A stretch of 61,964 nucleotides of DNA, counting the filler, from Hausera hauseri (Eukaryota), in assembly GCA_046269625.1 (NCBI GenBank). It is 10 parts of 10 records of this genome, joined end to end, with 100 filler letters (N's around TTAATTAATTAA, not from the genome) between each part and the next. Parts side by side here need not be neighbours in the genome. Positions count along the whole stretch, not along the records: positions 42,061 to 47,411 come from JBJURY010273286.1; 9 more parts are not named here. One strand, written 5' to 3'. The notes beneath the pieces were generated by a model that was not told the origin of the DNA, searched no databases, and saw nothing but the letters and a program-made list of their open reading frames with translations. Positions 14,088 to 49,520 of the stretch are shown piece by piece (the first letter of the stretch is position 1; each line of letters starts with the position of its first letter). The position numbers were made by a program, and so were the translations under genes.

Positions 14088-16058
14088 TCAATGTCCCTTC
14101 TGTATAGTCAGATTTGGGTATATGGATCTGATGTCCTGATACTCCATTCTGACGTCTGTGGTTGGTGCTTGTCCCTTCTCCACCTGATCGACTTTTTGAG
14201 TTTCTTTGCGCTGCCTGTAAAATTCTTCAATTTTCGTCCACCAGTTGAATCTCTTGTTCAGCCCTATTATCATTCCACAAATTAGGATTATTGCTACAAT
14301 AATTATGCCACTTATTGTTGCTGTGTTGTTCTTGTCGTTTATTTCCTTAATTGCCTGAAACTGCTCCAATTCGTTCAACATATCGTTGAAATCTATTTTC
14401 GTCATTGCCCTTAAATGTGTTAACGGTCTTCCGAATATAAACTTCATCTTCTTTGCTACTATTCCTGCTTCGGTGTTTGTCCATAGTTGCCCGTTCATAT
14501 CGATATTCGAAGTCTTCATCTTTGTCATCGCGATATCTACTTTTGAATCAAACGTCCGTGGTTCGTTGATGATCATCTCGCTTGAATATAAGGAACATCC
14601 CCTTTCCAAATGAATTATTTCTAGCTTCCTGCTCAGACGTATTGTTTCCGTTTTCAATTTCCCATCTTGCTCGCATAACTTTTGAGCTTTCAGTTCCATT
14701 TTTGTAATTATGGCCCACATATCTCCGCTGATCTTCGTTGCTTGTGGTGCCCGTGTTCTTCTCACTAATTCTTTTCTACAATATTTCCCGGCTCTTTCCA
14801 CGTTGTTCTCGTATACATTCATTATGCACGACTCCGTTTGTTCGGTGTTGTATATGGGTTGTGTCATTTCACAATACGCCGTGTTCGTTTCACTACATTT
14901 GGCGAACTCTTCTGGTTGTAATATGGCGAACATGATATTCGCTTTATTTATTAGCAATGCCTTTCCTTCCGGGATATTTTTAACATAATAGTTTTTCCAC
15001 ACTTCGTTTTGGTCGTCTCTGTCATTCACGTTACCAGTGCTCGTTACTTCATACAGCTCATACTCCTCGGTGCTATCTACTAACGGGATATTCATTATCA
15101 TTATTAACTGGCCTCTGTCCATATACGTTTCTGTTTCTAACTGCTCGTAATATTCTATTAGGTGGTCTTCCAAATTAATCGGCAGTTGTAAACTCCGTGG
15201 TATGGTTTTCCGAATACTCTCTAAAATTGTCTTCAATTCCGTCGGACTTATCGCATTCACGTTTAGCCTTTTTAGAGTAGTGAGGCTAAAGATGTCCTCA
15301 AGATTATTGGCAATTCTTTCAATACGTCTTACTAATTCCCTACATCTGCTTTCAATTGATACCAACATCCCTACTTCATTTATTTTGGTTTCTAATTCTC
15401 TAGTTATATTTTCTATACCATTTCCCATTTCTGTTAGATAGGTTTCAATTCTCGCTATATGCGTAGTGTATTCGTTGATTTTCTTTCTATTTTCTGATAT
15501 TTCACGATTAGATATGTTTATCGCCGAAATGCTCCGCTCCATCACGTGTTTCATAATCTCAATATTACCGTTAATCACATGAACGCTCTGTTTGATGGTT
15601 TGCAACTCTTCATCTTTCGCCGTCCCAAATAATGTATCTAACAACTCCCCTACAAATGGTAAGATGGCTCGCTTGGTTCTACTGCTATTAAGCCAATTTA
15701 ATCTTTCTTTTATGTTTCTAACTTCGCTTTGCCATTGTTTCACTTCTCTTTCTGCTTCTAGCAGCATCTTCTGGAAATATGTGGCATCGGTGGGTTTCTG
15801 ATTTCTATGACTCAGGTATCTTCTTTCATGTAGCAATTTACTGGCGTTTTCTAATTTCCCCTCTACATCTATTACTTGCTCTTGGAAGTTCTTTATCGAT
15901 TGTGTAATTATTAACTTCCAGTGGGCTTTTATCTGGTGTACATCTTTAATTTTCACGAACACAATACCTTGATTTTGGAAAATCTCTTTCCTATCTTGTG
16001 TCCATCCGACAACTATCCAGCATACAAGAACTGTGACCATCAATTGATGCATGTTCAT
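14088..16058 (-). CDS. env: Envelope fusion glycoprotein, baculovirus-F/errantivirus env-like, intact 656 aa
   Basis: Signal peptide; furin site RTKR followed by fusion peptide AILPFVGELLDTLFGTA; heptad repeats; ISPTEL..IL motif; Cys-rich ectodomain; TM ISGIIIVAIILICGMIIGL; cytoplasmic tail. Confidence 0.9.
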   Translation of the reverse strand: MNMHQLMVTVLVCWIVVGWTQDRKEIFQNQGIVFVKIKDVHQIKAHWKLIITQSIKNFQEQVIDVEGKLENASKLLHERRYLSHRNQKPTDATYFQKMLLEAEREVKQWQSEVRNIKERLNWLNSSRTKRAILPFVGELLDTLFGTAKDEELQTIKQSVHVINGNIEIMKHVMERSISAINISNREISENRKKINEYTTHIARIETYLTEMGNGIENITRELETKINEVGMLVSIESRCRELVRRIERIANNLEDIFSLTTLKRLNVNAISPTELKTILESIRKTIPRSLQLPINLEDHLIEYYEQLETETYMDRGQLIMIMNIPLVDSTEEYELYEVTSTGNVNDRDDQNEVWKNYYVKNIPEGKALLINKANIMFAILQPEEFAKCSETNTAYCEMTQPIYNTEQTESCIMNVYENNVERAGKYCRKELVRRTRAPQATKISGDMWAIITKMELKAQKLCEQDGKLKTETIRLSRKLEIIHLERGCSLYSSEMIINEPRTFDSKVDIAMTKMKTSNIDMNGQLWTNTEAGIVAKKMKFIFGRPLTHLRAMTKIDFNDMLNELEQFQAIKEINDKNNTATISGIIIVAIILICGMIIGLNKRFNWWTKIEEFYRQRKETQKVDQVEKGQAPTTDVRMEYQDIRSIYPNLTIQKGH

Positions 16059-16092
16059 CTTTATCTGGGGAATTATACATTCCTTGTTACCG

Positions 16093-17184
16093 CTAGGCCA
16101 ACTTCATCATCATTTGCATAACATTGAACAATTTAGCAATATTTTCTGGCTTTCCTTCTTCTTGATCTTTATTTACTACTGCCATTTGCTCGGGTTGAGC
16201 TTTACCCTGTAGTTTACCTTCTACTTCTGTTATTGCTTTCGGTCGGATTTTACCCTGCGGACTTTCTTTCGCATCTTCGCTTTCCGTATCTTCTCCTATT
16301 CTCTGTTTCTTGTATATCATATCTTTCTTCATCGTTGTACAAGGGATCTCTTTTTGGTTGACTATTTCCGTCAGCTGTTTTCTTAATTTGGTTATAACTT
16401 CTGCCTTCTCGGCATTTTCTTCTTCTAGTTGAGCTGAATGCCTTTCCGCTTCCCTTACTTTACCTTGTAAGTCGCTGACTTTTATATCCATCTTCCTGTT
16501 ATCTTCAGTTAACTTCCCAATAGTTTTCTTTATGTCTTGCACTTCTTTATCTTTTCTATCTACTGTTTTGTATACTTCTTCTATACGAGCTTCTGCTTGT
16601 CTTTTTTCTTTTTCTTGTTTCTTCTTAATTTCTTCTGCTTTTTTCATATATTTCCTTCTCAGTTCTGCTTGACGAGTAACTTTAGCTTTAGGTTCATCTT
16701 CAGTTGACGTGCTTGAATCTCGCAACCTTTTTAATCTTTGCACCATGTGATCTAACTCGGATGTTTCGGTCTCAGTGTCTTCTACCAAAGTTTCCGAACT
16801 GCTATTTTCTACATCGTCTCGGGTCTCTTCTTCATTTTCTTGTGTTTCTTGAGCTTCCTGTCTCTCCCTTCTTTCTCTGTCTTCTAAACGTCGTTTTCTT
16901 TCTAAGTATGGTATATCACTGTCCTCAGATGAATTGCTTCTTATGGTTCTTCTTCTTTTCAATTGCTGGGCGCGAGCTTCCTCGAACCTTCTCCTTGCTG
17001 CTGCCCTAGTATTTTTATACGGTGCATCGGTATTCGTTTCCTTATCTGTTTTTGGTTCAGTTTCGTTTCTTATAGGTGTTTCTCTTCTAGTTCGATATGG
17101 GACCACTATTTCGTATCGCGTGTCGCTTTCGTTCTCTTCTTCGGATGTTTCTTCATTACTTTGACTTGTCTCCGTCGACGTTCT
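16093..17184 (-). CDS. Highly charged coiled-coil ORF between integrase and env, in frame with the integrase tail after a TAG
   Basis: E/K/R-rich ORF 16093-17106 whose frame is open from 17184, directly after the TAG at 17185-17187. Confidence 0.6.
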   Translation of the reverse strand, partial: RTSTETSQSNEETSEEENESDTRYEIVVPYRTRRETPIRNETEPKTDKETNTDAPYKNTRAAARRRFEEARAQQLKRRRTIRSNSSEDSDIPYLERKRRLEDRERRERQEAQETQENEEETRDDVENSSSETLVEDTETETSELDHMVQRLKRLRDSSTSTEDEPKAKVTRQAELRRKYMKKAEEIKKKQEKEKRQAEARIEEVYKTVDRKDKEVQDIKKTIGKLTEDNRKMDIKVSDLQGKVREAERHSAQLEEENAEKAEVITKLRKQLTEIVNQKEIPCTTMKKDMIYKKQRIGEDTESEDAKESPQGKIRPKAITEVEGKLQGKAQPEQMAVVNKDQEEGKPENIAKLFNVMQMMMKLA

Positions 17185-20100
17185 CTATTCGCTTTCACTT
17201 TTCGGTGGTACGACATATCTTGTTTTACGCATGGTGTTCTTATTTTCAAATTTCTGTTCTTCTGGGAATGTTCGGTCATCCTTTCTGAGTTGGGTCGTGG
17301 TGGTTGTTGCCTCATGCCCTGTTTGTTGATTCACCACTACATATGTGATCGGTCCTTTCTTCTCTAGGATCTTGTATCCCGGTATCCAATTATTTTCAAG
17401 CTTCGAGCTCTTCTTATTCTTGCGGTAATAAACTTTATCACCGACCTCGAAGTCTTGTTGCACTGTCTTCGGCTCTCTACTTTTTTCTCTTTTGAAAGGC
17501 TTCTCTCACATTTCTACTAACTTTTACAGTGATCTCGTGTAATTTCTGGAGTTGGTACTTGTAAAATTCCTCTCCTTGATATTTTAGTCTTGGTCTCAAT
17601 AAATTATCGATAGGAAGAGTCGGTTCTCGGCCAAATAACATCTCGTAAGGAGAGTACTTTCGACTACCGTTCTCCATAACTCGAACCACCATCGCTGCTT
17701 GACTTAGATGTATATCCCATTCTTTGGGCTGGTCTTGGGTATACTTCGAGATAACGTCATATAGCGTAGAATGCTGCCTTTCATTGACTCCGTTTGCGCC
17801 TGGATTATACACAGACGTTCGTATGTGCTTGATGTTTAACTCCTTTAGCGTGTTTCTCATCGCCTGATTTACGAACTCTCTGCCGTTATCCGTTACAATT
17901 ATTCTGGGGCATCCATATCTGGTTATGAATTTTCCTACCAGAATGTCAACAATATTTTCAGCCGTTTTGTCAGGCACCGCATATAACTCGGGCCGACCAC
18001 TATAGATGTCCACTATGTGTAAAATGTACCTATTTCCCGAAGCTGTTAACGGGTGGGGTCCAGACAAATCTAGGCTCACTTTCTCTATGGGAAAATTGGC
18101 ATATTCAGGTTCTTGGATAGGATGTTTTAGTATTTCCATGTTTCGTAACTTGCAGGGTTCACAAGTTTTGATGTAGTTCCCTATCTCCTGCAGCATATTT
18201 CGCCAATAATATTTCATACTAATCAACTCTGCTGTCCTATCTCTTCCCAAATGACCTAGCTTGTCATGGTGTTCCTGCATTACCCACTGCTTCAGATGCT
18301 GTGGTATGCACAGTTGGAAATTTCTTTTCTCTTCACTACCTACTCGATACAATTCTTCATCGTCAAGTATAAACTTTTTCCACTTTTTCAACCTCTCCTC
18401 TACCCCTGATTGTAAGTCTTCGATGATCTTCTTCAACTCCTCATCTTTCAGTTGTTCTGCCTTCATGTTTACTTTGTTTTCGTCTTCTTCACTAAGTTCT
18501 GTTTCCGATTCTCCTGTTTTGTCTACTTTCGTTTCGGTAGTGCTAACCGCTGAAATTTGAAGAGTATGTTCGTCTATTTCTGGGGTACCGTCGTCAGTGT
18601 TCTCTTCACGTGGTTCTTCATGCGTACTTTTATCTGGGATTCTTGATAACAGATCTGCAATAGTATTCTGTAGTCCCGGAATATATTCAATGTTCATGTT
18701 ATAGCCTTGTAGGTTTAAATTCCATGTCTGTATTCTTTTATTTTGCACGTCAGCCTTCATCATAGCTTTCAATGGCATATGATCCGTCCTAATTGTAAAC
18801 TTACTGTTGTGTAAATAAAAGTTAAGTTTTTGCAAGGCGTAGTGTATCGCGTACGCTTCTTTTTCAGTTACTGAACACTTCCGCTGCGATTTGGTTAATC
18901 GATGAGACAAGAAGTATATTGGCTTTTCCTTATCTACCTTCTTCCCTTGTATCGTTTCTTCGCCGTCCTTCTGCGCCAGTACTGCTCCTACGGCAAAATC
19001 GGACGCATCTGTGTACAGTACATATTCTTTATTTGTATTCGGGTAGACTAGTAGGGGTACAACTGTCAAGCTCTCCTTCAAGTATTCAAAAGCTTTTTGG
19101 CAGTTTTCATCCCATCGGAAACGAGCAAACTTTCTTGTTAGTGCCACTAGCGGCTCAGCGATTACAGAGAAGTTTGGAATGAACCTCCGATAGTACCCGC
19201 AAGTACCTAAGAATCCTCGTACTTCTTTGGTGGATTTTGGCGCTGCCATATTCCTAATGGCTACCACTTTTTCATTATCCGGTTTCACTCCCTGCTGAGT
19301 GATCACAAAGCCCAAGTATTTGGTCTCCTCTTTTAAAAATTCGCACTTACTCAACTTCAGTTTTACTTTGTGTTCCCTCAGTCGGTCAAATACTCGTTCT
19401 ACATGTTCTAAATGATCTTTTATATCCCCTTTTGTAAAGATCAAAATATCATCGATGTAGGCCAGTGCGTATGCCTGCATCCCTTCCAGTACAACGTTCA
19501 TCAAGGACATATACGTCGCCGGTGATCCCTTAAGTCCAAAGGGCATTACATTCCATGCGTAGAGCCCCGTGTGTGTGCAAAATGCACTCTTCGCTTTTGC
19601 CTCTGGCGACATAGGAATGCACCAGAAACCCGACCTGGCATCTAACGTTGTAAAATAGGTTGTGCCATCCAACAATCCTAGGATGTCATCTATCAATGGC
19701 ATCGGATAACTGACATTATTCGTGATGGCGTTTAAGGCTCGATAATCGACGCAAAACCGATGGCTGCCATCTTTTTTTTGATACAATGACCACCGGAAAT
19801 GACCACTCGGACCTTGTCCGTTCGATAATCCCTGCCTTCAGCATCTCTTCCACCGCCTTTTCAACTATTTCTCTATTTCCTAGCGGGGTGCGATAGGGCT
19901 TCAAACTTATTGGAGCGTGGTCTCCCGTTTCTATTTTCATAGTCACCGTCTGTGTTCTTCCCAGTTCCATGTCCGAAATGGCAAAGACGTCTGCATGTTT
20001 TCTCACGAAATCTTCGACGCACGACTTGTGTTTTTCTTCTACCTTTAATGTTTCCAGCAACTTCTTGGTTCTTTCGTCGTCTTGTTTGATTTCTGCTATT

Positions 20101-21117
20101 AACTGCCCTTGCTTTCTCCTCCATAACCCTTCTTTTATTTCCGACAACACTCTGTCACGGTGTGTTCTTCTTCTCGCCTTTTCTTCCCAATACTTATCTA
20201 ATTTCTCTTGGGCTGACTCTTTCTTAGTTTTCTCGGTTATGTTCACTGTTTCACATGTTGATGTGTCAATTTTGTCTAGCTTTGCTACTACACATCCTTT
20301 TTGTAGTGTTATAGTCTTTCCAGTATAATTGACAATCATTACTGGTACTTCTCTTTTTTGATCTAACGTCACAATCCCGCACACTGTTTGTAGACCGGGT
20401 TCTTCAATTATCTCCTTCTCCTCTAGTGGTGTTACAGTCACATTCTCCCCTTCACGCCAGTAACTATTTCTTTTTAGTGACGCCACTACGATATTTACCG
20501 AGTTTGGTTTCATTGTTATCTTTCTTCTAACTCGCACTATGGAAGCTATATGTATATCATTCTCTAAGTCTACGTACTGATCTTCCACTTTTATTTTCTT
20601 TAGGTCGAAATAAATTCTCACATTGTGCTTTTGGAGAAAATCTCTCCCAATGATAGCGCTTCGACACATGTTACGAACTATCAGAAAACCGTGTTTCATT
20701 GTTTTCCCTCCAATATGAAATTCCAGTATGGTCTTTCCTAAAACTTTCAATGCACTTCCAGAGACCGATCTCAAATCAACATCCTGTTTTATTAATTTTC
20801 CTTTGGCCTTCAGCATTCGGTATACCCGTTCGCTTAGGATGCTGACCTGCGCACCAGTATCTACTAAACATCTGACTCTTACTTTTCCAAAGTGTATGAT
20901 GCATGAACTCGGATCTTCTATTACATTTATTTCGTATTGTTGTTTCTGTTTCCTACTTCGGTCGCATTCTTCTCTGATGTCTTCTGCTTTCAATTGTTTG
21001 GGCCGGGGACGTTGTTTTTTCGGAATCTGGGTGTGGATATTATTGACCTTCTTGTTTTCAGGACGGGGTGGGAATAGCTTTGGGGTTTTCTCTTTGTTCC
21101 ATGTAACTTGCCTCTGG
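17185..21117 (-). CDS. pol: Gypsy pol (PR-RT-RNaseH-IN) with two small indels
   Basis: CLVDTGAQ; RFCVDYRALN; YIDD; YTDAS; HHDKLGH..C..C; SLD..VTDNG..NGVNER; FEVGDKV..WIPGY. Frame breaks at the T8 run near 19772-19779 and near 17470-17490. Confidence 0.95.
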
Positions 21118-21643
21118 TTTCATCCACTTCCATAGGTTCAGGTCCACTGTGCTTCTTCTTCTCTATTCCGTCTCGGCACTTTTGCACTGCTTCCCTTCTC
21201 GTTTCCATGTTAGTTTTCTCACACTGTTGGTTCACCTTTAACCCTATTCTACCCTTTCCGATTTCTTTGCCTTTATCCGTCTCTCTGCTTTTCATCACAG
21301 CATATTTTCGGTGATTGTTCCTTTTAACTGGGGTGTAGTCAAACTTGTTATTTTTCGAATTCACCGTTCTTCTGGTCTGACCGTAACTTCTACTACTTCT
21401 TCCATAGCCTGTTCTGTAATAATTTCTTTTCATATTTTCTCTTTCGTTATCGTTTCTCGGCTTCTCTCTTTTGTAGTTCGCCTCGTTCGGTTCCTTTTGC
21501 TTCATGTTTCCAGTCTTATATTTTTCTTCTTTTCTTAGTATTGGTCTGCTATTTCGATTTCTAATTTCTCTTGAATTGTTGATGGCTTCCTTTCCTTCCC
21601 TGCTCCGTCGGAAGCTTAAATCACAGCAGGGTTTCCGTTTCCC
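20990..21643 (-). CDS. Basic low-complexity ORF between gag and pol, in the -1 frame of gag
   Basis: K/R/N-rich with a PEPMEVD motif; overlaps the gag end and the start of the pol frame. Confidence 0.6.
   Translation of the reverse strand, partial: GKRKPCCDLSFRRSREGKEAINNSREIRNRNSRPILRKEEKYKTGNMKQKEPNEANYKREKPRNDNERENMKRNYYRTGYGRSSRSYGQTRRTVNSKNNKFDYTPVKRNNHRKYAVMKSRETDKGKEIGKGRIGLKVNQQCEKTNMETRREAVQKCRDGIEKKKHSGPEPMEVDETRGKLHGTKRKPQSYSHPVLKTRRSIISTPRFRKNNVPGPNN
21585..21643 (-). promoter_or_regulatory. -1 frameshift signal: G GGA AAC plus H-type pseudoknot
   Basis: Minus strand reads GGGAAAC-ggaaa-CCCTGCT-gtgatttaa-GCTTCC-gacgg-AGCAGGG-aaggaaa-GGAAGC. The heptamer is in the gag frame and both stems are perfect. 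Confidence 0.8.
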
Positions 21644-22497
21644 TGTTGCCTCGGAATTCGACCTTCTTCTGTACTGTTTACTTTGCACACCCGGGCAAAA
21701 TGTCCGGTTTTTCCACATCTGTAGCAACTTCCGCTATTTCCCGTTCTTGGTCTGTCACTGCTCGGTTTCGCTGTTCGGCTTCGGCATTCCCTAGCGAAAT
21801 GTCCTGGTTTTCCGCAACTAAAGCACTTCCTTTCCTTTTCAACCTCTTGGATCAACTTCCGGTTGTCATACCGCCTTTCTCTATGATGTTCATGTTCGTG
21901 CTGTCTTCTATGCCACTTAGGTCTGCATTGATCGATGTCCATTTGTTCTTCGTTTCGATCGTCGTGTCTTTCCCTTCCTAACCTCATGTTGATTCTTTTG
22001 TTAAAGTTCTCTTCTTCGACTGCCATTTGTATTGCGGTCTGGATCGTTCTCGGTTCATCTTTCATTAACTTAATCTTGATTCTCGTATTTTTCAGACCGT
22101 CTATAAAAATGGGAATCAGCAATTTTCCAGTCTCTTCGGACATGATATTTTGTCCGGTGTACGCTTCCTCAGCCATGTTGAGCATTCTGTCCCCGTACAG
22201 TTGTACTGCTTCCTCTCGTTCTTGTCTGATCTTTCTTAGCGCTGCCACCGCATAGTGTGAATCGCTCACCTCGGCATATCTATTGGCAAGTGTCTTCTTA
22301 AATTCTTCCCAAGTTTCATCTGGGTATGCCATAAATCTTCGTCGGATGAAGTCGTTGGCCAAGCCATCCGAAGTCATATAAGCCAATTCCTTTCTCTCAT
22401 CCTCTGTGGCCTTGACTAAGTACGCGTATTTCTCAATCTGAGACAACCATGTCTTGAATGTTTTGGCTTCCCTTCCACTAAACGGCTGAACAAAGGT
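21616..22497 (-). CDS. gag: Gag with two CCHC zinc knuckles, 5'-truncated by contig end
   Basis: TWEEFKKTLANRY; IRQEREEAVQLY; FIDGL; EQMDID; CFSCGKPGHFAREC and CYRCGKTGHFARVC. Confidence 0.93.
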   Translation of the reverse strand, partial: TFVQPFSGREAKTFKTWLSQIEKYAYLVKATEDERKELAYMTSDGLANDFIRRRFMAYPDETWEEFKKTLANRYAEVSDSHYAVAALRKIRQEREEAVQLYGDRMLNMAEEAYTGQNIMSEETGKLLIPIFIDGLKNTRIKIKLMKDEPRTIQTAIQMAVEEENFNKRINMRLGRERHDDRNEEQMDIDQCRPKWHRRQHEHEHHRERRYDNRKLIQEVEKERKCFSCGKPGHFARECRSRTAKPSSDRPRTGNSGSCYRCGKTGHFARVCKVNSTEEGRIPRQQGNGNPAVI

Positions 22498-42060: not shown

Positions 42061-42530
42061 TGGTATATTTATTTCACTCTGATTTGATGTTTGTTTATTT
42101 TCATCATCACTAATAGTGAATAGTTGAAAATTATCGTATAATATATCTTCTAACATTTCCCGTTGTTTTTTACGTTTTCGCGACAAAGGTCTTTTCTTTC
42201 TTTGCCTTTCTAGCTTTCCTTCTTCGGCGTTTTCTTTGTCATCACTTATTGGGTTAAAATCGCATTTTCGTGGTCTTCCTCCCTTTTTCTTGATGCCAAA
42301 TTCCATGGTAATCTGGTATATTTTTGAGTTGGTATATTTCTTTCCGGTAAAGAGTCCATATTTTACAACATGATCATTGTCAACGGCTAATCTGCCATGA
42401 ACATTGGTTTTTACTATTACATTAGTTTCAAGATCTAACTCAACTAACAGTTTCCTTCGGAGATTTGTAAATTTAGTGAACATTCCTGCTGTTACTTCGA
42501 TTACTTGTTCCAAAAAAGTTCTTTCATCCA
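42061..42530 (-). CDS. Unknown ORF with AT-hook-like GGRPRK and basic NLS, 3'-truncated
   Basis: Open from ATG (MDERTFLEQ..) to the contig edge; no family recognised. Confidence 0.35.
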
Positions 42531-42588
42531 TGAAGATGACGAAATACCCGGTATAGAAAAAGAAGATGATGTGCTTATTCACCTATAA

Positions 42589-42780
42589 AATCCAAGAGTT
42601 TCTGAATTTAAAAATTTTACCATTGAGAAATTGAAAGTTGTTGTACAACATTTTACTGCTCTTTCAGACTTATACTTAGCTATTAATTTTCTACCACTCG
42701 TTAATGCCAATGTCCGCAATTTTTTCTCTCCTTCAATCCCATACCTCGTTATCCATATACATTTACGCAATCGCGGTGGA
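42589..42780 (+). pseudogene. Ubiquitin-like segment ending in RNRGG upstream of gag (copy B)
   Basis: FTIEKLKVVVQHFTALSDLYLAIN..LVIHIHLRNRGG compared with ubiquitin TIENVKAKIQ..LHLVLRLRGG. Confidence 0.62.
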
Positions 42781-45700
42781 ATTGACTCTTTACCCACCAT
42801 TTTTGAAACTGACAAAACTACCTCTAAACCATCACATTTTGCTTTTCACCCGAAATAAACGACCGTAACCACGCCATCTACTTTCACCAGTTATACATCT
42901 GCCATCTCGCCAGCTAAACACACTTCTTCTCAGTGACGGAATATTTGATTGATTAGGAAAAATCGAGCAAAACCTGGCTCAGCTTTCACAAACTTTGGCT
43001 GCAGTCTAACAACATTACTGATCCCTAAGTAAAAGCTCATAGTTTACTTTACCTCTTACCAAACACAGTAAAGACTTCTCTTCACGACATTTTAGTTGTT
43101 TTTTAATAATCCGACCCGTACACAAATCTCTATAATGCAGTTTTAAAATTTACCGAATAGTATATGGATTCCATAATCCATAGATTCTTTAATGATAACG
43201 CCATTGGAACACAAAAACCTTCTGAGTCCCTACGTACGTTGTTGTCTCATCTACAAACGCTAAGTGTAACTAGGCAACATAATTCAGACCTTCTGTGACG
43301 ATATTTCTTAAACGCTTTGCCTATACAAATTAGAGCACTTCTTACCGTTGTAGAGGAATCTACGGCGTTTGATAAATTGGCGGAATTGGCTAATAAATTA
43401 CATGAAGTGCTACAATTGAATTCCCAACCAATTGTATCAGCAGCAGTCGCAACAAGCGACAATCAACATAATACAACAATAGATCAACAGTTGAGCCAAT
43501 TACGCGCTGAAAATGTAGCACTACAACAGATAATACATAGATTTAATAATAAGTTGCACGATCTTTCATTACCACACCGAAGTGTTCCTATTCATATTCA
43601 TAATTATTCTGTTTCCAGAAATAGGTCACCATTGCCTACACGATCATTTGTGTGCTATTATCATAGAAAATTTCACATTAAAGCTAATAAGTGGTGTTTA
43701 GATTGTAGATATTGCACTCCAAATTTACATTCAAACAAGATTTTTTGCATCTGCCATGCGAAATTTTGATTCCACGCTCCGAAATGTCTTTTAGGCTTCA
43801 ACTATAAGAACAACGCTAACCATACTACCGACAGACGTTCTATTTCCCGTAGTAATAGTCGGCTGAGCTCATCAATGCAAGAAAACTAATTTCGCTGCCC
43901 GTACCCATGGCAGAGTCTGGCAAAGGCAACTTCTCTAATACAATCTGCCGACACACTTCTTTTTCAGTCTTAACACTAAAGGCTTCGATAACCACACCAA
44001 CAACTCAATCCATAGATTTCCTTATCGACACAGGCGCTGCGGTTTCTTTGCTACCACTCACTTTCCCTGCACAAAATTCACCGTTCAAAGCTAAATCGTT
44101 ATTTACGGCTTCAGGACAACCGCTAGACATTTCAGGTACATCTAAATTGTCGTTCATCTTACCAAACTTTCAGTCCACGTTTCATTGGACGTTTACCATC
44201 GCTAACGGCTTCACAGCAATCCTAGGTTCGGATTTTTTATCGCACTCTAATCTTTTAGTTGATTGCAAACAACAATGTCTGAAACATAACACTACTGGAT
44301 ATCCTACCAAGCAAATAAATAGTATATCCGCTAAGGCACAAACGATCTTCTCGCGGAAGCCTGTACTCAAAAATCCTGTAAGTAATCCAAACTTCTTGAA
44401 CAAGCATTTTTCATTTCGTAAATTTTTAATGATAATTTCGATATTCAGTCGAGATTTGGTTTTGACAACTACGATTGTGTTGGTTCAGTACATTCACTAG
44501 ACGAAATTACATCTTCAAACACTATTTTTAATACTACTATCCTACACCAAATTCCCCTTAATTGCAATAACTCACAAACATCACTCGTCACTGCACATAT
44601 TGACTCAACACCATCACCATCACCCAATCTCTCACATTTAGCTGCAAGTCTACGGAAATACATACGCACTGCATGCCCCCGCTTAATCCAGAATGACCGA
44701 ACCTTCACATCTACAAACAACACTTTTCATCACATCATAATGCAACACCAAATACTTATTCTGCAAAAGGTACGTCCATTGTCACCTCGTCGTAGGCAAA
44801 CTGTCGAAACGAAATTTCTAGACCTTGAACGCTCCGACATTGTACGCAGATCTAAATCGTCGTGGTTTTCGCCTTTAGACGTTTTCTAAAAAAAGATGGA
44901 TCCTTTCGACCATGCGGTGATTACCGTCAGCTAAACACTTTAACTGCTATGTATGCACACGCTTTACCATTAATTAAGGATAACCCGCACAGGCTCAATT
45001 CCACTACAGTATATTCAACCATAGACTTAGACAAGACATGTCATCAAATTCCTGTAGCACCCTAAGACAGCGAGAAAACTGCAGTTACGACATCTTTCGG
45101 CCTGTAAGAATACATTGATATGCCTTTTGGTTTACGCAACGCTGCGCAGACTTTCCAACGTCACATCGATTACATCCTCTCGTATTTCACTTTCGAGCAT
45201 CCATATATCAACGATTTCTTGATTGCTTCGTCTTCAACCAAACAGCATGAGGAACATCTTCCTTCTATTTTTCAACGACTTAACAACCATAATTTACAAA
45301 TTAATTTTACGAAATGTCACTTCTTCCAAAGGCGTATTAACTTTCTCGGACACATCATTTCGGCAAATGGTCATTATTCTCAATCAGAACGTGTTAAAAA
45401 TCTCAAAAGTATACAAATACCCCGAAAAACAACAGAAATGAGGAGCTTTTTGGGAACTTTGTACTTCGTTCACAAGTATATGCCGTACTGCTCTGAACTT
45501 ACAGCACCATTTGCTTACTTAAGCGGCGGCAAAAAACATCTGCCAATCCAGTGGGCACTTGACCTGGTTGATAAATTTGATAAGCTACGCGAAGGAATCA
45601 AGATCGTCGACATTCTCGCTTTCCCCAAGCCTGATGCGGAACTCATTCTTACTACAGACACTTCAACCACTGCGGTAGGTGCTGTGCTTTACCAAATACA

Positions 45701-47411
45701 CAAAGAAGAAAATCAACCACTAGAATTTTTCTCTCGTAGGCTAACATCCCTTGAAACTTGATATTCAACGTTCGATTGAGAATTATTGGCCATAATTCTC
45801 GTTTTAAAGCATTTGTCCCACCTACTTGTCGCTCGCCGTTTTACCATACAGACCGATCACAAGCCCTCGCTAAACATCATGACTATAAAACATCCTTCCT
45901 CACGCCAAGAACGACAGATATCATATCTGTCGACATTTAACTTTGACATTAAACATATTAACGGGATTAATAATTTGGTTGACGATTTCCTATCTAGGAC
46001 CGTTGGTTCGATTAATTTTTCACCAATCTTCTCTCAAGTATAACTCTAACAGAACCAGTCACCTCAGGACATGCTTAATTCTTTTAAGTCTTATACAATT
46101 GTTGACGGCGTGGACTTAGACAATTCCAAACCAGGTCATTCCGTAATAATTCTCGCGCCACCTTTGCAATGGCAAGCTTTTAACAGTGTACATTCACCGA
46201 ACCATCCTAGTGCTAAGGCAACTTTTTGCTTACTCCACTGGCAAGTAATGTGGCCAATTATGCGTTCTGGTATGCAAACTTGGATTAAGGAGTGCGTGGC
46301 TTGCCAGAAATTTAAAATCACCAAACATTTGAAGCCACCACTATATAATTTCTCTTGCACATCACGTTTCGAGTCTGTTCATGTTGATCTCGTTGGCCCT
46401 CTTCCTCCTGACAACCGTCATTAGTTCATTTTGATCACGATGGATCGTTCCTCACGTTGGCCAGAAGCTATCCTATTACGGAGCACTAACATGTACACAA
46501 TAGCCGACGTTTTCATACGCACTTGTATCAGCATATTTGGATTCTCTAGATTCATTATTACAGACCAAGGTACTCAGTTTGAGTCCAATTTGTTTAAATT
46601 TCTCTTTAACCGATTAGGAATCAGCCATATACACACATCACTGTATCACTCCCAATCGAATTGTCTTCTGAAGATATTATAGAGAACACTAAAAACGTCA
46701 CTGAGAATCCTCGCAGAATCCAATAGCAGTTGGACTACTCTTCTTCCGTTTGTTCTTCTGGGTTTGCGTAACATCCCTTCTACTTCTACTGATTGTTCAC
46801 CTACGGAAGCCCTCTTCGGAACACCTGTACGTTCATTATTTGAGTTAACTGCCTTGAAGATACACCGACAGACGAAGCTATCCGAACGGCACAGAATCAT
46901 TTTGTCTCAGTCAGTAAAGATTCATTCTGCAGGATAATAAATAACAATAAAACGTACTTACCAGAGGATTTATATTTGGCAAAGTTAGTCTGGCTGAGAA
47001 ATCAGACGCCGTGCGGTTTTCAACCACGGTATTTGGACCTTACAAACTCGTTCAATTGCATTCCCGCAATGCCATTATTTCAAAAGACGGTAAGGAACTA
47101 TCGGTGCATATCAAAAATGTAAAGCCTGCTTTTTGCGTAGATGATACCCCCTGCCCAAATTGCATCTCCTACCCCCCCTTTTGACTCCTCCACCTTTTCC
47201 TCCTTCCGTTCCTCCACCACCTGCACCCATTTCCATGCCGACCCCTATTTCTACTTCTCTATAAGAATCTCCTCCAATATACAATTCTACTACCCTAACA
47301 ATTTTAGTCCCTTTTCTCCTACATTTTATCCTCCATCTTCTTCCCAGTCTTTGTACCACACAACACCTAACACGACCAAATCCGATTTTACTGTATCTCA
47401 ATCACCTCAAC
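42589..47411 (+). mobile_element. Ty3/Gypsy retrotransposon, heavily decayed (copy B; same family as 5041-8440)
   Basis: Gag LPIQIRALLTVVEESTAFDKLAELA; CYYHRKF; FLIDTGAA; RPCGDYRQLN; MPFGLRNAAQTFQR; TDHKP; integrase VHVDLVGPLP, RWPEA, IITDQGTQFES, GPY. Confidence 0.95.
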
Positions 47412-48049: not shown

Positions 48050-49520
48050 ATGTGTACAAAGGGTAAATTGATTTTGACAAATCCTATGGACACGGTTGCA
48101 ACTCAATCAGACCATGGGAACATGGAGAAAAATCGATGGGAAATTTTCAAACGGGGAAAATTTCCCCTTGCACAATTCAAACGGCGGTGGAAATTGGTTG
48201 AGCATGTAGCCCATCAAAAGTTGAGCATTTCATATTATTGCCGCCTCACGATCGAACGAAAGGATCCAGGTGAATACGGCAACCGAACAAACAAACGAAC
48301 CGAAAAAACGCATTTTCAACCCTTGCCGTACGGTTCATTTGACTGGGTTGTCGAAAAACCGGAATTGCGTGCATTAATAGACAGTCTGCGTGTAGCAAAC
48401 ACGAAAGAAAGCAGCTCAGTAGGCTAACTGATGGAAGTCGATCTCGTTGTTCCATATGAGCCGCATGACGCTCTGGACGAATTACCCGTAGCACCAATTA
48501 GCCAATGTCCACCCAGCGGCTCAATAAAAGTAAAGAAACTGCTCATGACGCATGAACCAAAGCTGAATTACGTGGTTCATTGGCGTCTGCTGCAGTTTTA
48601 CATGGAGCTCGGTGTGCGTGTCACACAGCTTCATTGTGCAATCCGCTTCAATCAGGCGCCGATATTTAAGGCGTACACTGATGGAAATTTCTGGACACGA
48701 GCCGCAGCTTGTAAAAAGTTCGAAAAGGACTATTACAAGTTGAAAAATAATTTTCTTTACGGCAAAGCGGTAGAGAACCTCAAAAGGCAGCTCAATGTGC
48801 TCCTTTGCAACAACGAAAAGCGGCTGGTTACGTACACCAGCAAGGCTCAGTTCAGGCTGTCAATGCACATTGCCGACGGATTAGTCGTCGTGCTTGTACC
48901 GGCCAAGCTACATTGGAGATGTGGTATTGGACTTGAGCAAGTTGCGAATGTACGAGCTTCAGTATCGCAAGTTGGAACGTTACCGGCAAATGTTCGGAAA
49001 GGGCTGTGAGATCAGTATCGTTGCCGGTGACACAGACAGCTTTTTCCTTGAGCTGAAAAACATCGATCGGGACCAACTACACCGGCAAATGATGTCAAAT
49101 GGACTACTGGACACGTCCAACTACCCACAGAACCATCCACTATACGGCAGCGCGATAACAAACAAAACAGGTTGCTTCAAGGACGAAAGTGAAGGCCGGG
49201 TTCAATAAAGGAAATGGATTTTCCTACGCCCAAATGCTACAGTCTTCTGACGGACTTTGGGCCGAAAATGCGGGCCAAAGGCATCCAGCTGAAACAGACG
49301 GAAATAAATCACAGTGATTATCGCCGTGACTATAATGGACAAGAAGACGAAGAAGACGGAGGAGGCGGAAAGGCTGTTGTGTCTCAAACGACCATACGAT
49401 CGACTGAGCACTAGCTGTATACAATTACAAATAGGAAGGTTGCTTTGTCATGCAACAATGACAAGCAAAAGTGGGTGGGGCAAAATAAGAGTTGGGCGTA
49501 CGAAAATTGGCGGTTGAAGT
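48050..49520 (+). pseudogene. Polinton-like pPolB, internally deleted and decayed
   Basis: QPLPYGSFDW; EVDLVVP..HD..ELPVAP; KKLL..K.NYVVHWRLLQFY; KDYYKLKNNFLYGKAVEN; RPSYIG..VLDLSKLRMY; GDTDS; DTSNYP..HPLY..GCFKDE; PKCYS; RAKGI. Confidence 0.9.

What the first reader, a model, noticed from the sequence alone, without database searches (positions are those of the whole stretch)
42589..42860. Second copy of the UBL leader retains the ubiquitin helix motif
Seen: FTIEKLKVVVQ resembles the ubiquitin helix start TIENVKAKIQ. It is followed by a YL strand and, at roughly ubiquitin-like spacing (about 54 residues from TIE to GG), IHIHLRNRGG ending at 42780. Found on a separate contig in a strongly diverged copy, this argues the domain is an ancestral part of the element rather than a chance insertion.
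Basis: partly seen in the sequence, partly recalled or inferred. Interest (0 to 1): 0.7.

Follow-up and report, generated by a model that had tools for sequence, protein, structure and literature searches.

The report
Ubiquitin-like cut site before retrotransposon Gag
Two long-diverged, dead copies of a jumping gene in this animal both keep a protein-coding leader that ends in a ubiquitin-like tail right at the likely start of the shell protein, probably so that host enzymes cut the shell protein free, but the 'ubiquitin helix' flagged in this copy is not shared by the other copy and a ubiquitin fold is unproven.

Summary
The quoted motifs are at the stated places, in a decayed CsRn1-like Gypsy element on its own contig. 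The two tails rank first and second of 323,870 six-frame positions for likeness to ubiquitin 66-77. Met follows the GG in copy 1 and in 7 of 7 contigs of run X1. None of 12 other CsRn1-type gag starts has the motif. The headline claim is not supported. FTIEKLKV lies upstream of about 42642, where the copies show no homology and X1 cover falls from about 300-750 to 31 (3 contigs). Pfam, PDB profiles, the atlas and two low-confidence folds do not establish a ubiquitin domain. Best reading (0.5): an ancestral ubiquitin-derived processing signal, cut by a host deubiquitinase to release Gag, as in cytopathogenic pestiviruses. This scan noted the same layout before in another genome (e1-8073826); six literature searches listed no description of it.

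The parts
42061..42510 (-). Piece of a different, much more abundant repeat in the opposite orientation (149 open codons, no family match); it stands where the LTR and primer site of copy 2 would be
   Evidence: Depth 3,000-33,000 in X1 and 130-650 in X2; 26 X1 contigs go on differently behind 42510. No Pfam match. No primer-site match in this part.
42511..42641 (+). Low-copy segment holding the FTIEKL(KV) helix-like motif (42616-42639) and a stop at 42586-42588; origin unknown: a foreign scrap, or a subfamily-specific front half of the leader
   Evidence: 3 X1 contigs, depth 31; none of them shares the stop; one family contig has 58 unlike letters before 42642. No homology to copy 1. No significant PDB or Pfam match.
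42642..42780 (+). Family-wide coding leader of copy 2 (46 codons): SDxYL strand 42664-42687, last strand and R-x-R-G-G 42751-42780
42781..42858 (+). Start of the segment behind GG (likely Gag N-terminus); Ile here, Met in copy 1 and in 7 of 7 X1 contigs; the frame ends in a stop at 42856-42858
42960..43886 (+). Decayed gag of copy 2 (weak DUF7041 match; a decayed CHCC finger from 43653 and a second partial finger from about 43746); 6 stops
   Evidence: DUF7041 E=0.0063, below the cut-off
43859..47100 (+). Decayed pol of copy 2: protease, RT, RNase H, integrase; no 3' LTR before the contig ends
   Evidence: Pfam RVP (E=0.027), RVT_1, RT_RNaseH, Integrase_H2C2, rve
5043..5054 (+). tRNA-Trp-type primer binding site of copy 1, 2 mismatches in 12
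   Evidence: published pattern in PMC2582038 section 6
5199..5381 (+). Leader of copy 1 ending LHIHFRIRGG, followed directly by Met (5379-5381); two stops at 5193-5198; no in-frame ATG between primer site and GG
5382..8440 (+). Decayed gag-pol of copy 1; capsid core 5595-5753 in the same frame as the leader; intact CHCC finger 6217-6270; protease, RT, RNase H
1204..5042 (+). Host-gene pieces in sense orientation upstream of the primer site of copy 1: a bHLH gene, EF_assoc/Ras pieces (Miro-type, name recalled), SPT5 KOW4
   Evidence: Pfam HLH 7e-17, EF_assoc_1 1e-8, EF_assoc_2 6e-18, KOW4_SPT5 1e-9

Best explanation
The stretch is a protein-coding leader, shared by two diverged CsRn1-like Gypsy elements, that ends in a ubiquitin-type R-x-R-G-G directly before the likely Gag Met and probably serves as a ubiquitin-derived site where a host deubiquitinase would cut Gag free. 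Shown: the homology, selection on the protein, the tail's likeness to ubiquitin 66-77, Met behind GG in copy 1 and in X1 contigs, and absence of the motif from 12 other CsRn1-type gag starts. Inferred: (1) an ancestor of this lineage picked up a ubiquitin-family coding piece by template switching onto a host mRNA; (2) leader and Gag were translated as one chain from an upstream start; (3) a host USP/UCH enzyme cut behind GG and released Gag with a fixed N-terminus; (4) this made Gag independent of whatever captured sequence lay upstream, which would suit a family whose 5' region is often overwritten. The helix motif of copy 2 is not needed for this reading and may be a replaced or subfamily-specific front end.
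For: Leader pair 89 against 27±5. Codon identity 1.0/0.89/0.11 in HIH...RGG and 0.75/0.88/0.38 in SDxYLAxN; leader block dN 0.35 against 0.19-0.41 for gag and pol blocks, dS saturated. Tails score 39 and 33, ranks 1 and 2 of 323,870 positions, next best 30. Weak profile hits include SDE2 across the YL strand and the GG joint (E=1.1) and polyubiquitin (E=1.7). Met follows GG in copy 1 and in 7 of 7 X1 contigs; 9 of 9 X1 contigs differ from the window at the residue before RGG and read Ile as copy 1 does. In copy 1 the leader and capsid core share one frame with one stop between. 0 of 12 other gag starts have GG-Met or RxGG upstream. Deubiquitinases read the LRGG tail and R72, and USP5 cuts a UBL of under 20% identity (PMC13572447, passages). 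Ubiquitin works as a processing signal in pestiviruses (PMC8310069, passages). Host-gene pieces lie upstream of the primer site of copy 1.
Against: No Pfam match for either leader. The PDB profile aligns only ubiquitin 66-77, at 1.7 bits per copy, and eIF1 (E=0.24) or RPB3 (E=0.49) rank as high or higher. AlphaFold models have pLDDT 39 and 50 and matched no ubiquitin fold. Only 46 codons before GG are family-wide, too few for a whole ubiquitin fold. The front half is not homologous between the copies. Neither leader has an in-frame ATG upstream of GG, and both carry stops, so the start is unknown. Both copies shift frame between the post-GG segment and the capsid. Sites segregating among X1 contigs fall 5/2/7 on codon positions 1/2/3, p=0.15, from a cut table. 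The tail scan was made after the motif was seen, and the two hits are homologous, so they count as one.
Confidence: 0.5

Rival explanations
1. The leader is a lineage-specific N-terminal extension of Gag with another fold, or a short tail-only mimic. It is coding and ancestral but not a ubiquitin-like domain, and the likeness is confined to one strand.
For: All domain-level tests were blank or not significant. The folds were low-confidence and had no match. Only 46 codons are family-wide. L010 and L011 also have 119 open codons before the capsid motif, without GG.
Against: The best-kept residues are those that deubiquitinases read. GG sits directly before a Met. The tails rank 1 and 2 of 323,870.
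Confidence: 0.25
2. It is a ubiquitin-like unit, but its main role is not to free the Gag N-terminus. It stays on part of Gag as a turnover or sorting tag, or acts after release as a decoy or conjugated modifier, while most Gag starts at its own Met.
For: The Met behind GG is kept and could start Gag alone. Ordinary CsRn1-type gags start at a Met shortly behind the primer site. Burro elements carry internal Ubi2/SUMO-like domains of unknown role (PMC6431247, passages).
Against: A kept GG makes the joint cleavable; a tag meant to stay on would be expected to lose it (inference). Nothing here shows conjugation.
Confidence: 0.17
3. The stretch is non-coding (a packaging or dimerisation signal behind the primer site), and gag starts at the Met.
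For: No in-frame ATG upstream in either copy.
Against: Third positions are 11% identical while first and second are 100% and 89%. The DNA alignment of the two leaders is barely above shuffles, 88 of 1000.
Confidence: 0.03
4. Each copy captured a scrap of a host ubiquitin-like mRNA on its own, as dead cargo.
For: Captured host pieces lie upstream of copy 1, and the front end of copy 2 is a mosaic.
Against: The position and the GG-Met joint are the same in both. Homology runs on into gag (33 against 20±4 behind GG, 37 of 3000). Divergence matches that of gag and pol, and the copies are sisters.
Confidence: 0.05

Closest known systems
Ubiquitin insertions of cytopathogenic pestiviruses (BVDV Osloss, CP1, CP Rit); PMC8310069 and PMC13517609, passages read
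   Same: A ubiquitin-family unit directly before a viral protein, behind variable captured sequence; host hydrolases give the protein its proper N-terminus (shown there, inferred here).
   Different: There it is a near-intact host ubiquitin gained recently by single RNA virus strains. Here it is an old, strongly diverged, lineage-wide leader of an LTR retrotransposon, placed before the capsid protein.
Cellular UBL fusions SDE2 (PMC13572447, abstract and passages) and FUBI-eS30/FAU (PMC8354635, search listing only)
   Same: A divergent N-terminal unit ending in GG. A weak match to an SDE2 chain covers the YL strand and the GG joint (E=1.1).
   Different: These are host genes with a proven UBL. 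SDE2 continues with KGG, this leader with Met-Asp. No significant homology was shown.
CsRn1 clade of Ty3/Gypsy (CsRn1, PwRn1, AgCR; PMC2582038, passages and section 6)
   Same: tRNA-Trp primer site, CHCC finger, PR-RT-RH-IN order; RT groups with 20 such loci (95/92).
   Different: 336 bases from primer site to GG in copy 1, with a coding leader; two CHCC-like fingers in a row; the pair branches as sister to the 20 loci fetched.
Burro/GYPSM1 giant Gypsy elements of planarians (PMC6431247, passages)
   Same: A Gypsy element reported to carry a ubiquitin/SUMO-like motif.
   Different: There the motif lies inside a polyprotein of about 5,000 residues, behind Gag. Here it is in front of Gag in a compact element and ends in GG-Met.
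LTR-mediated retroposition (Tan et al. 2016, PMC5131818, abstract only)
   Same: A likely route by which the leader and the host pieces upstream of copy 1 were gained.
   Different: It explains capture, not the long-term selection on the leader.

Membership tests
Ubiquitin-like (beta-grasp) domains | C-terminal strand ending in a basic residue and Gly-Gly | tested here: met
   Aligns to ubiquitin 66-77; ranks 1 and 2 of 323,870 positions
Ubiquitin-like (beta-grasp) domains | Significant profile match to a ubiquitin, NEDD8, SUMO or SDE2-type family | tested here: not met
   No Pfam hit for either leader; best PDB profile E-values 1.1 (SDE2) and 0.24 (nine summed ubiquitin tails of 1.7 bits or less each). 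Both queries are decayed copies, which lowers the power.
Ubiquitin-like (beta-grasp) domains | Beta-grasp fold of about 75 residues | tested here: inconclusive
   pLDDT 39 and 50 from two-row alignments; best Z 4.0 and 4.1
Ubiquitin-like (beta-grasp) domains | Front hairpin and helix shared across the family | tested here: inconclusive
   No homology between the copies upstream of 42642; only 3 X1 contigs share that part; intact copies could not be read
Cleaved ubiquitin fusions | UBL in one frame with the partner | tested here: inconclusive
   Same frame as the conserved post-GG segment in both copies and as the capsid core in copy 1; both copies are broken in between; X1 and X2 contigs differ from copy 2 in length in that interval
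Cleaved ubiquitin fusions | Cut behind GG by a host deubiquitinase | not testable with these tools
   Needs a cleavage assay
CsRn1 clade of Ty3/Gypsy | tRNA-Trp primer binding site | tested here: met
   Copy 1 at 5043, 10 of 12; not found in copy 2, whose 5' end looks replaced
CsRn1 clade of Ty3/Gypsy | CX2HX9CX3C (CHCC) in Gag | tested here: met
   Exact in copy 1, one Cys lost in copy 2 (definition)
CsRn1 clade of Ty3/Gypsy | RT groups with the clade | tested here: inconclusive
   Sister to 20 unnamed metagenome loci of this type, 95/92, bootstrap not fully settled; no named reference element was in the tree
CsRn1 clade of Ty3/Gypsy | Paired LTRs and a 4-bp target-site duplication | not testable with these tools
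   Both contigs end before a 3' LTR; no genome is held

The most novel reading that the evidence does not exclude
A lineage of CsRn1-like retrotransposons has used a domesticated ubiquitin-like unit as a host-cleaved insulator in front of Gag for long enough to saturate its synonymous sites. The front half of the unit and everything upstream can be swapped for captured scraps without changing the released capsid protein, and that tolerance is what lets the family act as a gene-capturing, gene-shuffling vehicle.
Probability: 0.25. Interest if true: 0.75.

Novelty: new variant of a known kind. Interest (0 to 1): 0.5.

Why it matters
LTR retrotransposons are taken to mature Gag with their own protease and to start it at its own Met (established knowledge). 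A conserved ubiquitin-type GG-Met joint would mean that a lineage borrows host deubiquitinases for this step, a device so far documented in pestivirus variants and a few cellular fusions. It would also offer a reason why these elements tolerate host-gene cargo at their 5' end. This second copy matters because it shows the joint is old and was selected as protein. It does not show the ubiquitin fold, and the same layout has been noted by this scan in another genome, so the gain from this single finding is moderate.

Tried and rejected
No whole genome is held, so further copies could not be read. All three word-based homolog searches were blank: copy-1 leader plus gag, longer proteins; copy-2 gag; the leader alignment at E up to 10. 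The full HMMER search of representatives never ran, because the queue was full on all 10 tries. Both atlas searches gave no usable hit. Single-sequence PDB searches of each leader found no ubiquitin. Foldseek and VIA-align listed no ubiquitin-family chain for either low-confidence model; this absence is not evidence on the fold. Viral contigs held no RT relative. Neither leader hit any of the 26 metagenome loci by tblastn at E up to 1. No RNA holder was listed. Run X2 barely covers the leader. Segregating sites in X1 gave no significant third-position excess (one search showed 40 of 72 rows). The identity of 42061-42510 and of 42511-42641 stayed unknown. I suspected a further SPT5 piece at 4847-5040 from a recalled motif; Pfam and PDB did not confirm it. 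Look-ups of earlier findings by sequence and by relatives were empty. Literature searches listed no paper on a ubiquitin-GG-Gag retrotransposon; I saw only listings for those hits, most subscription journals and Repbase reports are not searched, and no supplements were read.

Full report
Setting. The window is a chain of contigs joined by spacer runs. The finding lies on contig 42061-47411, which holds a decayed Gypsy element: gag with a weak DUF7041 match (E=0.0063), protease, RT, RNase H and integrase. A second such element lies at about 5043-8440 on the first contig, 66-70% identical in DNA over gag and pol. Copy 1 has a tRNA-Trp-type primer site at 5043 (10 of 12) and an exact CHCC finger, the two marks of the CsRn1 clade given in PMC2582038 (passages and section 6). 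In an RT tree of 26 rows the two copies form a clade (97/91) that is sister to 20 metagenome loci of this type (95/92 for the whole group). L024, L025 and L026 were left out as too short, and the bootstrap had not fully settled. The host is an animal; earlier notes of this scan say probably a flatworm, which I did not test.

The observation. The motifs and the 54-residue spacing are as stated. The two leader frames align at 89 against 27.0±5.0 for shuffles (0 of 3000), and up to GG at 56 against 22.1±4.2 (0 of 3000). The codon pattern is that of a protein. In the nine codons HIH...RGG, positions 1, 2 and 3 are 1.0, 0.89 and 0.11 identical; in SDxYLAxN 0.75, 0.88 and 0.38. The 31-codon block around GG has dN 0.35 with saturated dS, within the 0.19-0.41 of six gag and pol blocks. 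The leader was inherited from the common ancestor of the two copies and was kept as protein.

The tail. A profile of the two leaders aligns to ubiquitin only at residues 66-77, at 1.7 bits per copy, which is not significant. As a control I scored that 12-mer against all six frames of the window and the 26 fetched loci. The two leader tails rank first (39) and second (33) of 323,870 positions, and the next best scores 30. The test was made after the motif was seen, and the two hits are homologous, so it counts once. Met follows GG in copy 1. Copy 2 has Ile there, but 7 of 7 X1 contigs that cover the place have Met, and 9 of 9 have Ile before RGG, as copy 1 does. Of the 26 loci, 12 showed a recognisable gag start, and 0 of 12 had GG-Met or RxGG upstream. 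Neither leader hit any of the 26 by tblastn. The joint is therefore special to this lineage among what I could sample.

The helix, which is the finding's headline. Without the last 12 residues the pair scores 31 against 20.5±4.0 (71 of 3000), carried mostly by SDxYLAxN. Upstream of 42642 neither DNA (815 of 1000 shuffles reach the score) nor protein (best of three frames 45 of 1000) shows homology to copy 1. Contigs of run X1 laid at 80% likeness cover 42520-42627 with 3 contigs at a summed depth of 31, and 42640-42771 at 245-750. One contig carries 58 unlike letters before 42642. Depth of contigs is no copy number, but the step and the unlike letters say that most relatives differ from the window just where FTIEKLKV lies. 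The front of copy 2 is a mosaic in any case: 42061-42510 belongs to a far more abundant repeat in the opposite orientation, and no primer site was found there. The helix motif may be the true front half in a small subfamily; the three contigs do not share the stop at 42586. It may also be a foreign scrap. It cannot be used as evidence of shared ancestry.

The fold. Pfam found nothing for either leader, nor did the atlas or three homolog searches. A PDB profile search gave five weak rows: eIF1 twice (E=0.24, 0.33), SDE2 (1.1, over the YL strand and the GG joint), RPB3 (1.1) and polyubiquitin (1.7). AlphaFold models from two-row alignments had pLDDT 39 and 50. The first shows strand-strand-helix-strand-strand, the second lacks the second strand. 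Four fold searches gave no significant match. Membership of the ubiquitin-like family is thus met for the tail, not met for a profile match, and open for the fold.

Frame and start. In both copies the leader runs in frame into a conserved segment behind GG (33 against 20.3±4.2, 37 of 3000). In copy 1 the capsid core lies in the leader's frame with one stop between, although about 35 codons in the middle match copy 2 in another frame. Copy 2 changes frame between the leader and the capsid, and contigs of both runs differ from it in length in that interval, so the break is probably not shared by all copies. Neither leader has an in-frame ATG upstream of GG. The start codon has decayed or lies further upstream. 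In copy 1 the sequence before the primer site is made of host-gene pieces in sense orientation (bHLH, EF_assoc/Ras, SPT5 KOW4).

Mechanism. The residues kept best are those that deubiquitinases read in ubiquitin, the LRGG tail and R72, and USP5 cuts a UBL with under 20% identity (PMC13572447, abstract and passages). In cytopathogenic pestiviruses a ubiquitin unit behind captured sequence is cut by cellular hydrolases to give NS3 its proper N-terminus (PMC8310069 and PMC13517609, passages). I infer the same here: leader and Gag are made as one chain and a host enzyme cuts behind GG, so that Gag starts correctly whatever lies upstream (0.5). Rivals are a Gag extension of another fold or a tail-only mimic (0.25), a UBL with another role (0.17), independent dead cargo (0.05) and a non-coding signal (0.03). 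No cleavage, expression or translation was shown.

Novelty. Six searches of the paper library listed no report of a ubiquitin-GG-Gag retrotransposon; I saw only listings for those hits. The nearest retrotransposon case I read is the internal Ubi2/SUMO-like motif of planarian Burro elements (PMC6431247, passages). Gene capture by LTR elements is known (PMC5131818, abstract). Verdict: a real, ancestral, selected coding leader with a ubiquitin-type GG-Met joint; the helix claim is not supported; a new variant of a known device; interest 0.5.

Noticed in passing
window 6217-6360 and 43653-43800: Both gags carry a second, partial CHCC-like finger behind the first; the clade description read mentions one.
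   Followed up: partly
window 1204-4846 (+): Three host-gene pieces without evident introns (bHLH, EF_assoc/Ras of Miro type, SPT5 KOW4) are stacked in sense orientation before the primer site of copy 1, the same pattern that earlier notes describe for this genome.
   Followed up: partly
window 4847-5191 (+): A frame open for 114 codons runs from the sequence behind the SPT5 piece through the primer site of copy 1 and stops just before the leader frame opens; it could be a relic of read-through from upstream sequence or chance.
   Followed up: no
window 694-763 (+): A primer-site-like 11-mer (2 mismatches) at 694 and a 38-column likeness of about 726-763 to 5107-5140 (12 of 500 shuffles); possibly the remnant of another leader.
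   Followed up: partly
window 14091-22497 (-): A different Gypsy element with CCHC gag, protease, a weak dUTPase match (E=0.0014), RT, RNase H, integrase, an unassigned 363-codon frame and a baculovirus-F-type envelope gene (E=1e-11).
   Followed up: no
window 42061-42510 (-): 149 open codons of a very abundant repeat with no Pfam match; it looks like a protease-RT linker of another Gypsy element (recalled likeness, not confirmed).
   Followed up: partly
window 48428-49006 (+): Weak match to a type-B DNA polymerase (E=0.0025), perhaps a Polinton piece.
   Followed up: no
L004 3564-4300, L006 161-900, L010 255-1000: Close RT relatives (one clade) share a long gag N-terminus, but L004 and L006 seem to lack the capsid part that L010 has.
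   Followed up: no
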